Shown here: piece after piece, positions 30,469 to 37,054 of the stretch
Layout of the letters: each line of letters opens with the position of its first letter
How positions within the stretch are numbered: the first letter of the stretch is position 1
NCBI RefSeq assembly: GCF_009914755.1
Contig: NC_060928.1
DNA length: 64,000 nt
From: the human T2T-CHM13v2.0 reference genome, Homo sapiens
Reading direction: 5' to 3' (one strand)
Made by a program: the position numbers and the translations under genes
The notes under the pieces: generated by a model
What the model saw: the letters and a program-made list of their open reading frames with translations, nothing else
Databases searched by the model: none
What the model was told of the DNA's origin: nothing

Positions 30469-30701
30469 CAATAATTATTTTGAGCATCAGTGGTCTAAGT
30501 GCACCAATTTAGAGATAGAGATTGTCAGAGTGGATTAAAATACAAGATCCAACTATATATTATCTACTAGAAAACTACTAGAATAGGTAGCAAGACAGAC
30601 ATGAGCAGGGCAGAACACCACCACTGTCTCTCTAAAATAATAATTTGTCATAGCCGGCACCAGGAAAAGGCAGTCTCCCAATACATGGAAACACCTGAAG
30701 C

Positions 30702-31020
30702 AGACAGACGCGGTGGCTTATGTCTATAATCCCAGCACTTTGGGAGGCCAAGGCCTGCAGATCATGAGGTCAGGAGTTCAAGACCAGCCTAGCCAATATG
30801 GTGAAAACTTGTCTCTACTAAAAATACAAAAAAAAAAAAAAATATCTAGACATTGTGGCATGCAACTGTGGTCCCAGGTTGAAGGAGGCTGAGGCACAAG
30901 AGTTGTTTGAACCTGGGAGGCGGAGGTGGCAGTGAGCCGAGATGGCATCACTGCACTGCAGCCTGGGTGACAGAGCAAGACTCTGTATCAAAAAATAATA
31001 ATAATTATTATTATTATTAT
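30702..31020 (+). mobile_element. AluS (Sg-like, diverged) carrying only the left TSD
   Basis: Dimer preceded by aaacacctgaagc. The tail turns from (AAT)n into (ATT)n and is not followed by the TSD. Confidence 0.88.
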
Positions 31021-31093
31021 TAGAAGGAGTACACTAAAAAACATGATTAAAAAGCATAGTATCATAAATAAGTAAACCAGCAACATAGTCATT

Positions 31094-32185
31094 TTTTGCA
31101 GGAAGTCAGGGACCCCGAACGGAGGGACCAGCTGAAGCCGCGGCAGAAAAACATAAATTGTGAAGATTTCATGGACATTTATCAGTTCCCAAAATTAATA
31201 CTTTTATAATTTCTTATGCCTGTCTTTACTGCAATCTCTGAACACAAATTGTGAAGATTACATGGACATTTATCACTTCCCTAATAATATTTTTATAATT
31301 TCTTACGTCTGTCTTTACTTTAAACTCTTAATCACGTTATCTTCATAAGCTGAGAATGTATGTCACCTCAGGAAGACTATTGTAGAAATTGATGGTAAAA
31401 CATGTGTGTTTGAACAATATGAAATCAGTGCACCCTGAAAAAGAACAGAATAACAGTAATTTTCAGGGAATAAGGGAAGATAACCATAAGGTCTGATTGC
31501 CTGCAGGGTCGGGCAGAATACAGCCATATTTTTCTCTTGCAGAGAGCCTATAAATGGACATGTGAGTAGGAGAGATATTGCAAAATTCTTTTCCCAGCAA
31601 GGAATATTAATAATTAATACCCTGGGGAAGGAATGCATTCCTGGGGGGAGGTCTATAAACTGCCACTCTAGAAGTGTCTGTCTTATGTGGTTGAGATAAG
31701 GACTAAAATATGCCCTGGTCTCCTGCAGTATCCTTAGGCTTACTAGGATTGAGAAATTCCAGCCTAGTAAATTCTAGTCAGACCGATTATCTGCTCTCGA
31801 ACCCTGTTTCCTGTTAAGATGTTTATCAAGACAATACGTGCACAACGGGACATAGACCCTCATCAGCACAGTGGGACATAGACACTCATCAGTAATTCTA
31901 ATTTTGCCTTTGCCTTGTGATCTTTATTGCTCTTTGAAGCATGTGATCTTTGTGACCTACTCCCTGTTCGTACACCCCCTCCCTTTTTAAAATCCCTAAT
32001 AAAACTTGCTTGTTTTGCAGCTCAGGGTCATCATCACAGTCCTACCAATATGTGATGTCACCCCCAGAGGCCCAGCTATAAAATTCCTCTCTTTGTACTC
32101 TTTCTCTTTATTTCTCAGACTGGCCAACACTTAGGGAAAATAGGAAAGAACCTACAATGAAATATTGGGGCTGGTTCCCCCAATA
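31094..32185 (+). mobile_element. MER11 solo LTR (HERV-K11/HML-8)
   Basis: Starts ttgcaggaagtcagggaccccgaacggagggacc and ends aatattggggctggttcccccaata, with 6-bp TSD gtcatt (31088-31093 / 32186-32191), the length expected for ERVK. Confidence 0.92.
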
Positions 32186-32375
32186 GTCATTTATTATCGA
32201 CTACAAATACAAATAGACATTTGTTTTCTTATTCTGTTTTATTTCTAGAAATAAAGCTATTATGTGCATTCTTATACATATCTACTGGTACAGATGTGTA
32301 AGAATATTTCTAGGAAAAAAATTGCATATACTGAACTTCACAGGCTAATCCATAATCGTTCTCAAAAGTGTTTGT

Positions 32376-32674
32376 GACCAGGCGTGGTGGCTCACACCTG
32401 TAATCCCAGCACTTTGGGAGGCTGAGGCGGACAGATAACGAGGTCAGGAGATCGAGACCATCCTGGCTAACACGGTGAAACGCCATCTCTACTAAAAATA
32501 CAAGAAAATTAGCTGGGTGTAGTGGTGGGTGCCTGTAGTCCAAGCTACTCAGGAGGCTAAGGCAGGAGAATGGTGTGACCAGGGAGGTGGAGCCTGCAGT
32601 GAGCCGAGATCACGCCACTGCACTCCAGCCTGGGCGACAGAGCGAGACTCCATTTCAAAAATAAATAAATAAAT
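32376..32674 (+). mobile_element. AluY (in arm A only)
   Basis: gagatcgagaccatcctggctaacacgg. TSD aaaagtgtttgt (32364-32375 / 32675-32686). Empty site in arm B at ~38386-38397. Confidence 0.93.
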
Positions 32675-33876: not shown

Positions 33877-34159
33877 GTGGCTCATGCCTGTAATCCCAGC
33901 ACTTTGGGAGGCTGAGGTGGGTGGGTCATGAGGTCAGGAGATCTAGACCATCCTGGCTAACATGGTGAAACCCTGTCTCTACTGAGAAATGCAAAAAATT
34001 AGCCCGGCGTGGTGGCAGGTGCCTGTAGTCCCAGCTACTTGGGAGGCTGAGGCAGGAGAATGGCGTGAACCCTGGAGGCGGAGCTTGCAGTGAGCCGAGA
34101 TAGCACCACTGCACTCCAGCCTGGGTGACAGAGCGAGACTTTGTCTCAAAAAAAAAAAA
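33877..34159 (+). mobile_element. AluY, slightly 5'-truncated (in arm A only)
   Basis: accatcctggctaacatgg, gagaatggcgtgaacc, ggagcttgcagtg. TSD a(a/g)gaaattgg. Empty site in arm B at ~37220-37230. Confidence 0.93.
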
Positions 34160-34335
34160 AGGAAATTGGCAAACGGTCTTCCAAAGGGGCTATATCATTT
34201 TGAATTTCCTCCAGCAATGAATGAGAGTTTCTTTACATCCTTGCCAGCATTTGGTGTTATTAATGTTTCAGATTTTGGCCATTCTGATAGGTGTGTAGTG
34301 GTATCTAATTGTGTTAATTTGCATTTTCCTGATGA

Positions 34336-34417
34336 AACTTGGATATGGTATTGACATTAATATGATAATATTTGTTGGATTTTAATAAAATTATTAATTG
34401 CACAAATAATATAACAA
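34336..34417 (+). repeat. Direct copy of unique sequence 39278-39360
   Basis: aacttggatatgg...tatttgttggattttaataaaattattaattgcacaaataatataacaa versus aacttggacatgg...tatttgttggattttaataaaactattaattgcaaaaataatataacaa; about 8 differences in 83 nt. Confidence 0.9.
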
Positions 34418-34427
34418 CTTTTTTTTT

Positions 34428-34732
34428 GCCTGTAATCTCAGCCCTTTGGGAAGCCAAGGCAGGCCGATCACAAGGTCAAGAGTTTGAGAACAGCAGGGCC
34501 AATATGGTGAAACCCCATCTGTACTAAAAATACCAAAAGAAATTAGCTGGACGTGGCAGTGCACACCTGTAGTCCCAGCTCCTCGGGAGGCTGAGGCAAA
34601 AGAATCGCTTGAACCCGGGAGGTGGAGGTTGCAGTAAACCGAGATCATGCCATCGCACTCCAGCCTGGGTGACAGAGTGAGACTGCCTCTCAAAAAAAAA
34701 AAAAAAAAGAAAGAAAGAAAGAAAGAAAAAGA
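34428..34732 (+). mobile_element. AluS (Sg-like), missing the first ~20 nt, carrying only the right TSD
   Basis: Starts gcctgtaatctcagc. A/GAAA tail followed by aaacacctgaagc (34733-34745). Confidence 0.88.
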
Positions 34733-37054
34733 AAACACCTGAAGCTGGTAATCAGCTTCCTGATAAGATCTCAGGAGTTGAACAAGCAGGTTCAAGCATG
34801 CACACTAAGAGGCACAATGGCAGAGTGTAACTGGTATATAACCTTCCTCTAGGAATGCTCAATTGGTAAGAGAAAAAATAATGCCTCAAATGAGCATGTG
34901 CACAACTTCAGTAAATACACTGGGCATGCAGCCTTTTCCAAGTGCTGCCAGGCCACTATGCATGCAGATAGCCTGCTCCAAGAGAAGAATCAGGGGGAAA
35001 GAAATGCAAACCCTGCAACAGTGCCAATGTTTAAAACCCCAAGTCAAGGTTTGGATGGGGCATTTGGATTTGTCAAGTTACCCACTTGGCCTTGTTCCAA
35101 GTGTACTTTGCTTCCTATTGTTCCTGCTTTAAAATATTTTAATAAATTTTCACTTCTGCTCTAAACTTCACCTCGGTTTCTTACTCTGCCTTCTACGTCG
35201 CAACTGAATTCTTTTGTCTGAGGAGGCAAGAATCGAGTTTGCGCAGACCCATTTGATTCGCTGCTGCTAAAAAACCATTTCAAATGTAACGACACTTATA
35301 CATTAAAACTAAACGGATGGAGAAACATATACCATAATAATACTAATGAAAAGGAAAGAAGAGTAGCTATATTAATTTCAGACAGAGCATAGTTTACAGC
35401 AAAATACATATATATATATATCACAGATTAAAGAAGGGCATTAAGTAATGATAAAAGAGTCAATTCTCCCAGAAGATATAATAATCCTTATTATGTATGT
35501 GTGTAAAAACAGAACATTAAACTGATAAAACTTCAAAGAGAAATAGATAAATACCCTATCATATTCAACACCCCACTATCAGAAATGAACAAAATTAGCA
35601 GGCAGAAAATCAGAACGGACATAGCTAAATTCAACCTGCCATCATGCAACTGGATATAATTGACATCAATTGACTACTTCATTGGACAATATAATACATA
35701 TTCTTCTCAAGCTCACAAAGAATGTTCACCAATGTATTCCACATTCTGGACCATAAAACAAACCTTAACAAATTTAAAAGATAGAAATCATTCAATGTCT
35801 GCTCTAAGACCGTAATGGAATTAAACTAGAAATCAGTGTTAGAAGGATAACAGAAAAATCACCAAATATGCAGCAATTAAGCAACACACTTTTTAATAAC
35901 ACAAGCCAAAGAAGAAGAAATCTCAAAGGAAATATAAAAAAAATTTGAACTAAATAAAAATAAAAACATAACATCAAGATTTGGGGGATGCAGCAAAAGA
36001 CAATTCTTAAAGGAAAATTTATAGCATTGAATAAATATATTAGAAAATAAGAAAAATAAGTTTCCTCTGAGAAAACTAGAAGAAAAAAATTAATTTCAAA
36101 GTAAGCAGAATAAATAGAATTAGGGCAGAAGTCAATAAAGTTGAAAATAAATCAGTAGAGAAAAATCAATAAAAGTAAAAACTGCTTATTTGAAAAGACC
36201 AATAGAATTGAAAAACTGTAATTGAAGCTAGTTAAAAAAAAGAGAGGACATAAATTACTATTACTGGAAACCAAGAGAAGACATCACTACAGATTCTATG
36301 GACTTTAAAAGGAAAGTCAAAGAATACCATGAATATTTCTATGTCCACCAACATGAAAACCAAGATAAAATTGATCAATTTCTTGAAAGACACAATTTGC
36401 CAGATCTCGCACAAGAAAATTTCAGAAGCTCTAAATCAATTAATGAAGTTGAATAGAGCCCAGAAATAGACCCACGGAAATATAGTCAATTGATCTTTGG
36501 CAGTGGGGCAAATGCAATTCAACAGAAAAAGGACAGGTTATTTCATTTTGTTTTTTGTTTTTTTTTTTCCCTCAACAAATGGTCTGCAAAAAGAAGATAT
36601 CCACATGGGAAAAAAGAATCTAGAAACAGATCTTAAACTTTCAAAAAATTAACTTAAATGGGTCATATATTTAAATGTAAAACAAAAAACTACAAATTTC
36701 CTAGAATATAGTAGAAAATTTAGATAATCTTCCCTGGGTTTAGTGATGACAATTGAGATATAATATCAAGAACATAATCTATTAAAGAAAAAGTTAATAG
36801 GTTGGATTTCATTAAAGTTAAAAATATATCCAGTGAAAGATACTGTTAGGAGAATAAAAAATAATAGAATGGGAGGAAATACTTGCACAAGACACATGTA
36901 ATAAAGGCTTTTTAAAATTATATAAGGGACTCTTGAAACTCACCAATAAGAAATCAAATAATCTATTTTTTTAAAATGGACCAAAGACCTTAACAGACAA
37001 CTAAGGATACACAGATGACAAATAAGCATATGAAAAGATGTCTCACATTATATA

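What the first reader, a model, noticed from the sequence alone, without database searches (positions are those of the whole stretch)
30689..34745. Fossil complex templated insertion: three local donors stitched inside one Alu TSD pair
Seen: the MER50 LTR is split by a single 13-bp TSD, aaacacctgaagc (30689-30701 and 34733-34745), but about 4 kb lies between the two copies rather than one Alu. Removing later insertions (MER11 with its own TSD and two AluYs with their own TSDs) leaves this order: Alu; a ~80-bp inverted match to 57930-58006; a ~1.5-kb inverted copy of 37055-38558; an 82-bp direct copy of 39278-39360; and a second Alu lacking its first ~20 nt. The unconverted pieces are each about 87-91% identical to their donors by hand count, consistent with a single old event. 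Established knowledge: serial short template switches onto nearby loci in both orientations are the signature of FoSTeS/MMBIR. Inference: this is an old germline multi-switch event that postdates AluS insertion and predates the MER11 and AluY insertions.
Basis: partly seen in the sequence, partly recalled or inferred. Interest (0 to 1): 0.8.

Follow-up and report, generated by a model that had tools for sequence, protein, structure and literature searches.

The report
Fossil three-donor copy-and-paste DNA patch
Between two old Alu elements that share one target-site duplication lies a patch stitched from copies of three nearby stretches of the same chromosome, a well-preserved but functionally ordinary fossil of template-switching DNA repair or replication in an ancestral primate.

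Summary
The 13-bp duplication is real. Ten of 11 other genomic copies of the host LTR family run through the site with the 13-mer present once.

Between the two copies lie these parts, in order:
- an Alu;
- piece A, a reverse-complement copy of about 58017-57921;
- piece B, a reverse-complement copy of 38558-37055;
- piece C, a direct copy of 39278-39360;
- nine T;
- an Alu that starts at its position 21.

A 1.09-kb LTR and two AluY, each with its own flanking repeat and each absent from the donors, came later.

Whole-genome searches show all three donors are local. B matches elsewhere at 74% or less, C has no other copy, and A shares 11 of its 18 private variants with the local donor only.

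The four unconverted pieces are equally diverged (10.3% pairwise, homogeneity p=0.64). The middle of B has since been homogenised by gene conversion.

The two Alus are unrelated to each other and to the donor-side Alus.

Best reading: one serial template-switch event (FoSTeS/MMBIR-like, or break repair with several template switches) at a break between two resident Alus. A single event cannot be proven without outgroup genomes. This is a new example of a known kind, and no function is implied.

The parts
30689..30701 (+).
   Evidence: sequence. (885 candidate family copies). (10 of 11 family copies are contiguous through the site with the 13-mer once).
30702..30995 (+). Left Alu, full length. 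It starts directly after the TSD, and its body ends near 30989, followed by AAAAAA. It is old: non-CpG divergence 27/242 from the majority of its 15 nearest genomic relatives.
30996..31022 (.). (TAA)3(TTA)6 microsatellite at junction J1. Donor A has the unexpanded form AAAAAA-TAA-TTA-G at the matching place, so the Alu tail and donor A share AAAAAATAAT.
31023..31093 (+). Piece A, first part: reverse-complement copy of about 58006(-58017)..57933. It is an internal fragment of a longer dispersed repeat.
   Evidence: (the family runs on both sides at the donor). (11 of 18 private variants shared with the local donor only).
31094..32183 (+). It is flanked by TAGTCATT at 31086-31093 and 32184-32191 and is absent from donor A.
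   Evidence: (2204 candidates; all 39 full-length other copies scored are 85-91% identical).
32192..32203 (+). Piece A, second part, up to the A/B junction J2. The copy reads TACAAATACAAA where both donors carry AATACCAA.
   Evidence: (chance of a shared 8-mer near two random sites is 0.0055).
32204..32375 (+). Piece B, left unconverted part: rc of 38558-38387, 21/172 substitutions.
32376..32675 (+). Later AluY-type insertion 1, with an 11-bp TSD aaaagtgtttg (32365-32375 and 32676-32686). Absent from the donor.
   Evidence: (9/228 non-CpG).
32676..33875 (+). Piece B, central block: rc of 38397-37222, a mosaic of gene-conversion tracts. There is 1 substitution in the first 400 bp (32676-33075), 12 in the next 200 bp, and 31/1175 overall.
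   Evidence: (Fisher p about 1e-12 against the unconverted pieces). (next best genomic match 74%).
33877..34159 (+). Later AluY-type insertion 2, lacking about 9-10 nt at its 5' end. It has a 9-bp flanking repeat with one mismatch (33868-33876 and 34160-34168). Absent from the donor.
   Evidence: (4/228 non-CpG).
34162..34335 (+). Piece B, right unconverted part: rc of 37228-37055, 15/174 substitutions. Homology to the old LINE-like family stops at 34335 here but runs through 37055 at the donor.
34336..34417 (+). Piece C: direct copy of 39278-39360, 7/82 substitutions. The genome holds only this copy and its donor. Junction J3 (B/C) is blunt.
34418..34427 (+). Filler at junction J4: C followed by nine T. 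No donor was found for it.
34428..34732 (+). Right Alu, starting at position 21 of the Alu majority. The body runs to about 34690, followed by a 42-nt A/GAAA tail that abuts the right TSD. Non-CpG divergence is 19/228.
34733..34745 (+). Right copy of the 13-bp target-site duplication.
37055..38558 (-). Donor B, part of a longer old LINE-like repeat that continues past 37055.
   Evidence: (all 6 family copies fetched align in this region; 4 run uninterrupted across 37055, and for the other 2 the alignment breaks into two pieces close to it).
39278..39360 (+). Donor C, otherwise unique sequence. Its right end lies 1-2 nt inside the target site (AAAAATTCT) of the Alu at 39369-39660.
57921..58017 (-). 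Donor A, internal to a dispersed repeat that extends to at least 58300. An Alu (57597-57895) lies about 25 nt from its lower end.

Best explanation
Two old Alus sat head to tail inside an LTR and shared one 13-bp target-site duplication. The simplest history is that the second Alu had integrated into the A-rich tail of the first.

Later, in one germline event, a break between them was closed with a string of three newly synthesised copies of DNA from 2.3 to 27 kb downstream on the same chromosome. The proposed steps are:
1. A 3' end in the A-run of the left Alu's tail primed on a matching AAAAAATAAT in donor A and copied about 100 nt of the opposite strand.
2. It switched at a shared AATACCAA to donor B and copied 1.5 kb, again inverted.
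3. It switched without homology to donor C and copied 82 nt in direct orientation.
4. It was joined through a C+T9 filler to position 21 of the right Alu, with loss of that Alu's first 20 nt.

The donors stayed intact, so this was copy and paste. This is the pattern of serial template switching (FoSTeS/MMBIR, or synthesis-dependent break repair with several template switches).

Afterwards an LTR and two AluY inserted into the patch. The 1.5-kb inverted repeat pair has since exchanged sequence by gene conversion, most recently over 32676-33075.

What is shown: the anatomy, the local origin and polarity of all three pieces, their equal divergence, the later insertions, and the conversion.

What is inferred: a single event, the direction of synthesis, the nature of the initial lesion, and the tandem state of the two Alus beforehand.
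For: Real TSD and split LTR: (10 of 11 family copies).

Local donors:
- B is 95% identical to its donor against 74% or less for the other 38 places scored, out of 4671 candidates.
- C has 2 of 2 genomic hits: itself and the donor.
- For A, the donor is the top hit of 40 scored out of 134 candidates. It shares 11 of piece A's 18 departures from the family majority, while the 18 other copies share 0-4.

Polarity:
- The host LTR is contiguous elsewhere.
- The repeat families run through the donor breakpoints: A; B, where 4 of the 6 family copies cross 37055 in one alignment and 2 break close to it. In the patch, family homology stops at 34335.

One age: 9/76, 21/172, 15/174 and 7/82 substitutions are homogeneous (p=0.64).

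Junctions:
- J1 shares AAAAAATAAT.
- J2 has AATACCAA in both donors, with a chance probability of about 0.0055.

The Alus are resident and not part of the string:
- Left against right Alu, 40/219 non-CpG differences.
- Right Alu against the Alu beside donor C, 41/218.
- Both exceed the patch's 52/504 (p=0.005 and p=0.0024).
- No outlier donor Alu appears genome-wide: best 84% and 86%, in smooth series.

Order in time: 11.2% and 8.3% for the Alus, then about 5.2% for the patch, then 3.9% and 1.8% for the AluYs.
Against: - No outgroup genome was available, so the simultaneous arrival of A, B and C is not shown. Equal divergence over 76-174-bp pieces is a weak clock.
- Only two of the four junctions show shared sequence, and both are A/T-rich. 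J1 is blurred by a microsatellite and J2 by a 6-nt tandem.
- J3 is blunt, and J4 carries an unexplained T9.
- The right Alu is only marginally older than the patch (19/228 against 5.2%, p=0.03). An origin coupled to that Alu's own insertion is therefore not excluded.
- Donor C ends within 1-2 nt of the target site of a neighbouring Alu (chance about 0.002 per breakpoint). The model does not explain this.
- The Alu genome searches scored only 40 of about 8000-9800 candidates, so a donor Alu could have been missed.
Confidence: 0.6

Rival explanations
1. There was only one Alu at first. It broke near its position 20. The left Alu from position 21 on (or, mirror-wise, the right Alu) is itself a fourth templated piece, copied from another Alu after homology-driven invasion. 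The string was then Alu-A-B-C, and nothing was deleted.
For: The left Alu starts exactly at the TSD and the right Alu starts exactly at position 21. So left[1-20] plus right[21-end] would make one complete Alu with no loss. Both Alus are more diverged than the patch, as expected for a copy of an already aged donor.
Against: No donor Alu was found. In the window, the nearest Alus differ by 16-22% at non-CpG sites. Genome-wide, the best matches are 84% and 86% with no outlier, and none lies nearby. By contrast, A, B and C all have local donors at 87-91%. Only 40 of thousands of candidates were scored, so this is not conclusive.
Confidence: 0.15
2. The event was coupled to retrotransposition. The right Alu's target-primed reverse transcription into the left Alu's A-tail was not resolved normally. 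The free 3' end then switched onto nearby DNA (C, then B, then A) before joining the upstream end. The T9 reflects untemplated A added to the cDNA.
For: - The right Alu is 5'-truncated and carries a long A-tail against the TSD.
- The break site is an Alu A-tail, a preferred L1 endonuclease target (established knowledge, recalled).
- Donor C ends at the L1-type target site of another Alu.
- The filler is a homopolymer.
Against: The right Alu appears older than the patch (8.3% against about 5.2%, p=0.03). The pieces carry no poly-A and lie in both orientations. The best microhomologies are at the far (left) end, which fits synthesis starting from the left Alu's tail rather than from the right Alu.
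Confidence: 0.12
3. Two or three separate local duplications landed in the same spot at different times.
For: Nothing specific. The clock has low resolution. The window holds another unique local inverted duplication of similar divergence at 46318-46514 and 47115-47300, so such events recur here.
Against: The pieces abut with no gaps, TSDs or flanking remnants. Their divergences are homogeneous (p=0.64). Three independent hits within a stretch of about 20 nt are improbable.
Confidence: 0.1
4. This is not a rearrangement at all. The matches are independent members of repeat families, or the whole composite is a retrocopy of a locus elsewhere.
For: A and B lie within dispersed repeats (134 and 4671 candidates).
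Against: B is 88-99.7% identical to its donor against 74% or less elsewhere. C is unique apart from its donor. A shares 11 of 18 private variants with the local donor only. No second locus carries B or C.
Confidence: 0.02

Closest known systems
FoSTeS / MMBIR complex rearrangements (serial replicative template switching; Lee, Carvalho and Lupski 2007 and Hastings et al. 2009, both recalled and not read here)
   Same: Several copied segments from nearby loci are joined in mixed orientation. The donors are retained. There is microhomology at some junctions, a short filler at another, and a small loss at the return point.
   Different: This is known mainly from de novo pathogenic copy-number variants of kb to Mb size. 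Here the event is a fixed, tens-of-millions-of-years-old, 1.7-kb insertion string in a gene desert. A replicative origin cannot be tested on a fossil.
Bridges and cycles of templated insertions, and local n-jumps, in cancer genomes (PMC7025897; abstract and passages found by term search were read)
   Same: [quoted passage not shown] Strings that return to the host and leave a gap are called bridges. If all templates are local, the pattern is called local n-jumps, with a mix of inverted and non-inverted junctions. The present string returns to the host site with a loss of about 20 nt, and its templates are all within 27 kb.
   Different: Those events are somatic, detected through copy number and junctions, and the templates are often on different chromosomes and larger. 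Here the event is germline and fixed, and it is resolved to the base.
Class 2 templated sequence insertion polymorphisms (patch repair of double-strand breaks; PMC5110952, abstract and first quarter of the text read)
   Same: A break is closed by insertion of a copied patch that has no TSD of its own. The junction features are of the end-joining type (microhomology, added nucleotides).
   Different: [quoted passage not shown] An RNA intermediate is proposed for them (section heading seen; the section itself was not read). Here there are three local donors in both orientations, one of them 1.5 kb.
Short-range template switches in great-ape genomes (PMC7954356; abstract and two passages read)
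   Same: Germline template-switch mutations fixed during primate evolution and recognised from sequence alone.
   Different: That paper addresses scales below the kilobase-to-megabase range, with a single switch-and-return onto a nearby template. Here there are three donors up to 27 kb away and one 1.5-kb tract.
Interlocus gene conversion between inverted repeats
   Same: The central block of B has tracts of near identity (1/400) embedded in 8-12% diverged duplicates. One edge lies exactly at the AluY1 heterology.
   Different: Nothing unusual. It is a secondary process acting on the repeat pair that the event created.

Membership tests
Templated-insertion string by serial template switching (FoSTeS/MMBIR type) | Inserted segments are copies of other loci whose originals remain (copy and paste) | tested here: met
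   Donors A, B and C are present and uninterrupted. The local donor is the best match genome-wide for each piece.
Templated-insertion string by serial template switching (FoSTeS/MMBIR type) | Two or more segments joined directly, in mixed orientation, at one recipient site | tested here: met
   The order is rc A, rc B, direct C, abutting at 32203/32204 and 34335/34336.
Templated-insertion string by serial template switching (FoSTeS/MMBIR type) | Microhomology or short insertions at the junctions | tested here: inconclusive
   J1 has a 10-nt A-rich identity. J2 has a shared 8-mer (chance 0.0055). J3 has none. J4 has a C+T9 filler. Later change blurs J1 and J2.
Templated-insertion string by serial template switching (FoSTeS/MMBIR type) | All junctions formed in one event | not testable with these tools
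   Divergences are homogeneous (p=0.64), which is consistent with one event. Primate outgroup loci are needed, and none is available here.
Templated-insertion string by serial template switching (FoSTeS/MMBIR type) | Replicative origin (collapsed fork, single-ended break) | not testable with these tools
   A fixed fossil keeps no record of the initial lesion.
L1-mediated retrotransposition product (chimeric retrocopy / class 1 TSIP) | TSD, A-tail at the 3' end and an A-rich target site for the whole insert | tested here: met
   A 13-bp TSD starting AAA, and a 42-nt A/GAAA tail against the right TSD. An ordinary Alu insertion explains these features equally well.
L1-mediated retrotransposition product (chimeric retrocopy / class 1 TSIP) | Internal pieces derive from RNA (one sense, poly-A or processed ends), or a source locus holds the composite | tested here: not met
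   The pieces lie in both orientations and have no A-tails at their ends. No second locus carries B or C.
Class 2 TSIP (patch repair from distant loci) | [quoted passage not shown] | tested here: not met
   All three donors lie 2.3-27 kb downstream in the same window.
Duplication of a single Alu at the break (a 'cycle' that re-replicates host sequence) | The two flanking Alus are copies of each other, with the same divergence as the patch | tested here: not met
   40/219 non-CpG differences against 52/504 for the patch (p=0.005). The two Alus share only 4 derived variants.
Interlocus gene conversion (central block of B) | Tracts of near identity with sharp edges inside older paralogues | tested here: met
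   1/400 against 52/504 substitutions (p about 1e-12). One edge lies at the AluY1 insertion.

The most novel reading that the evidence does not exclude
The string was started by the retrotransposition machinery and not by a random break. On this reading, an L1-endonuclease nick, or an unresolved Alu target-primed reverse transcription in the left Alu's A-tail, supplied the 3' end that then hopped across three local DNA templates. The end of donor C, which falls 1-2 nt inside the target site of a neighbouring Alu, would mark a second endonuclease-prone site. That would make this a germline fossil linking retrotransposition intermediates to MMBIR-like templated chains.
Probability: 0.1. Interest if true: 0.6.

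Novelty: new member of a known kind. Interest (0 to 1): 0.4.

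Why it matters
The locus is a base-resolved, fixed germline example of a multi-template copy-and-paste string. That class is known mostly from disease-causing de novo rearrangements and from cancer genomes. Here all four junctions, all three donors and a datable stack of later insertions are still readable.

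It shows that such events enter the primate germline and persist. It also shows that they create inverted repeat pairs that go on exchanging sequence by gene conversion for tens of millions of years.

It lies in a gene desert, with no annotated gene in the window, and nothing suggests a function. Its value is as a worked example and as a search template for finding more such fossils.

Tried and rejected
- Two Alus as duplicates of one Alu: rejected. They differ at 40/219 non-CpG sites (18.3%) against 10.3% for the patch, p=0.005.
- Right Alu copied together with piece C from the Alu that follows donor C: rejected. They differ at 41/218 sites, and the 5' part shares no private variant.
- Left Alu copied from the Alu beside donor A: rejected. 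The orientation does not fit (Alu direct, flank inverted), and they differ at 37/219 sites.
- Genome-wide search for donor Alus: no outlier. Best matches were 84% and 86%, with 40 of 9802 and 40 of 8068 candidates scored.
- T9 as a decayed copy of the TTCTCTCT that follows donor C once the neighbouring Alu is removed. This would need about 5 changes in 13 nt, so it is not supported (by eye).
- Piece A as an independent member of its repeat family: rejected.
- Composite retrocopy from another locus: rejected.
- No primate outgroup genomes, no Dfam/RepeatMasker library and no population data are held by these tools. As a result, the repeat-family names, the branch of origin and any inversion polymorphism could not be checked.

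Full report
**Observation.** The 13-mer aaacacctgaagc is at 30689-30701 and 34733-34745. The sequence outside it belongs to one dispersed LTR-like family. The left flank from about 30622 found 885 candidate copies in the window's own genome. In 10 of the 11 copies fetched, the left and right flanks align to overlapping positions that hold the 13-mer once. The 11th is collinear but not aligned over the 13-mer. So about 4 kb is inserted into that element, and the duplication is a true target-site duplication.

**Content between the two copies.** Self-BLAST of the window leaves the following low-copy matches once Alus are set aside:
- 31025-31097 = reverse complement of 58006-57933
- 32204-32375 = rc 38558-38387
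- 32676-33875 = rc 38397-37222
- 34162-34335 = rc 37228-37055
- 34336-34417 = 39278-39360, direct

Three later insertions interrupt these pieces.
- A 1.09-kb element (about 31097-32183) is flanked by TAGTCATT. It is a full-length member of a dispersed LTR family: 2204 candidates, and all 39 full-length other copies scored are 85-91% identical.
- An Alu at 32376-32675 has an 11-bp TSD.
- An Alu at 33877-34159 has a 9-bp flanking repeat with one mismatch.

The donors run uninterrupted through all three sites. With the LTR left out, piece A continues to 32203. The order is therefore: TSD, left Alu, A (rc), B (rc), C (direct), C+T9, right Alu from its position 21, A-tail, TSD.

- B: the local donor matches at 95%, and the other 38 places scored, out of 4671 candidates, match at 74% or less.
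- C: the genome holds two copies, the patch and the donor (2 of 2 candidates).
- A is harder, because it is an internal fragment of a dispersed repeat (134 candidates). The local donor is the top hit, but only by 81.5 against 77.9 bits. I fetched 18 other copies and aligned them. Piece A departs from their majority in 18 columns. The local donor shares 11 of those, and the other 18 copies share 0 to 4.

All three donors are local.

**Polarity.** The host LTR is contiguous elsewhere. At donor A the repeat family continues on both sides. At donor B all six family copies fetched align in the region. Four cross 37055 in one alignment, and in the other two the alignment breaks into two pieces close to it. 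In the patch, family homology stops at 34335. So the patch is the copy.

**Divergence.** Substitutions are 9/76 (A), 21/172 and 15/174 (the two outer parts of B) and 7/82 (C). These are homogeneous (chi-square p=0.64) and pool to 52/504 = 10.3%. The central 1.2 kb of B is different. It has 1 substitution in its first 400 bp, then 12 in 200 bp, 11 in 500 bp and 7 in 100 bp. The first 400 bp differ from the unconverted pieces with p of about 1e-12. This is a mosaic of gene-conversion tracts between the inverted repeats. One edge lies exactly at the first AluY.

**The two Alus.** They are not copies of each other: 40/219 non-CpG differences against 52/504 for the patch (p=0.005), and they share only 4 derived variants. 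The right Alu is not a copy of the Alu that follows donor C (41/218). The left Alu is not a copy of the Alu next to donor A (37/219, and the orientation is wrong). Genome-wide, neither has an outlier relative: best 84% and 86% in smooth series, with 40 of 9802 and 40 of 8068 candidates scored. Measured against the majority of their nearest genomic relatives, non-CpG divergence is 27/242 (left Alu), 19/228 (right Alu), 9/228 and 4/228 (the two AluY-type inserts).

With the patch at about 5.2% per lineage, the order is: both flanking Alus, then the patch, then the inserts. The step from the right Alu to the patch is only marginal (p=0.03). From recalled primate divergences, about 5% per lineage would place the event near the catarrhine-platyrrhine split. 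This figure was not computed here.

**Junctions.**
- J1: the left Alu's tail and donor A both read AAAAAATAAT. Donor A has A6-TAA-TTA-G where the patch has A6-(TAA)3-(TTA)6-G. The junction therefore lies in a shared A-rich run and was later expanded as a microsatellite.
- J2: both donors carry AATACCAA at the junction, and the patch has TACAAATACAAA there. A shared 8-mer within 10 nt of two random sites in this window occurs with probability 0.0055.
- J3: blunt.
- J4: C+T9 of unknown origin, then Alu position 21.

The better homologies lie on the left. This suggests, by inference only, that synthesis started from the left Alu's tail and ended with an end-joining step at the right Alu.

**Unexplained.** Donor C ends 1-2 nt inside the target site of the Alu at 39369. 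The rough chance is 0.002 per breakpoint, or about 1% over six donor breakpoints. Yet that Alu was not copied. Donor A also ends about 25 nt from an Alu. Either Alu pairing helped bring the donors to the break, or these are endonuclease-prone sites. I could not decide between these.

**Mechanism and rivals.** The best reading (0.6) is one serial template-switch event at a break between two resident tandem Alus.
- Rival 1 (0.15): one original Alu broken at position 20, with one of the present Alus as a fourth templated piece.
- Rival 2 (0.12): an event coupled to the right Alu's own retrotransposition.
- Rival 3 (0.1): successive events.
- Chance, or a retrocopy from elsewhere, is excluded.

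**Comparison with what is known.** The structure works like FoSTeS/MMBIR rearrangements (recalled). It also works like the 'bridges' of templated insertions, or local n-jumps, described in cancer genomes (PMC7025897, passages read). It differs from class 2 templated sequence insertions in having local donors (PMC5110952, abstract and first quarter of the text read). It differs from short-range template switches in great apes in scale (PMC7954356, abstract and two passages read). My three literature searches listed no paper on this locus. I did not search by coordinate, so I make no claim that it is unpublished. It is a new member of a known kind.

**Limits.** No outgroup genomes, no repeat library and no population data were available. 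Genome searches score only the best 40 candidates.

Noticed in passing
window 46318-46514 and 47115-47300: A second local inverted duplication: 197-bp arms about 600 bp apart, 88% identical, and the only two copies in the whole genome (2 of 2 candidates). Its divergence is similar to that of the patch, so this region may have had more than one template-switch-type event.
   Followed up: partly
window 32676-33075 versus 38397-37998: One difference in 400 bp between inverted repeats 3.3 kb apart indicates very recent gene conversion. The 1.5-kb inverted pair could also flip the spacer 34336-37054. Whether either is polymorphic in people was not testable here.
   Followed up: partly
window 39359-39369 (donor C right end): Donor C ends 1-2 nt inside the target-site duplication (AAAAATTCT) of the Alu at 39369-39660, although that Alu was not copied into the patch. 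The rough chance is 0.002 per breakpoint. Unexplained.
   Followed up: partly
window 31150-31242 and 31241-31331: An internal tandem duplication of about 91 bp (86% identical) inside the inserted 1.09-kb LTR.
   Followed up: no
window 18443-18756: A short array of three to four repeats of about 100 bp each, 80-89% identical, seen in the self-comparison.
   Followed up: no
window 7140-8979 versus 45374-43886, and 42355-43200 versus 58542-59366: Older low-identity pairs (67-78%). They are most likely independent members of the same dispersed repeat families rather than local duplications. The second pair suggests that the repeat holding donor A extends to about 59368.
   Followed up: no
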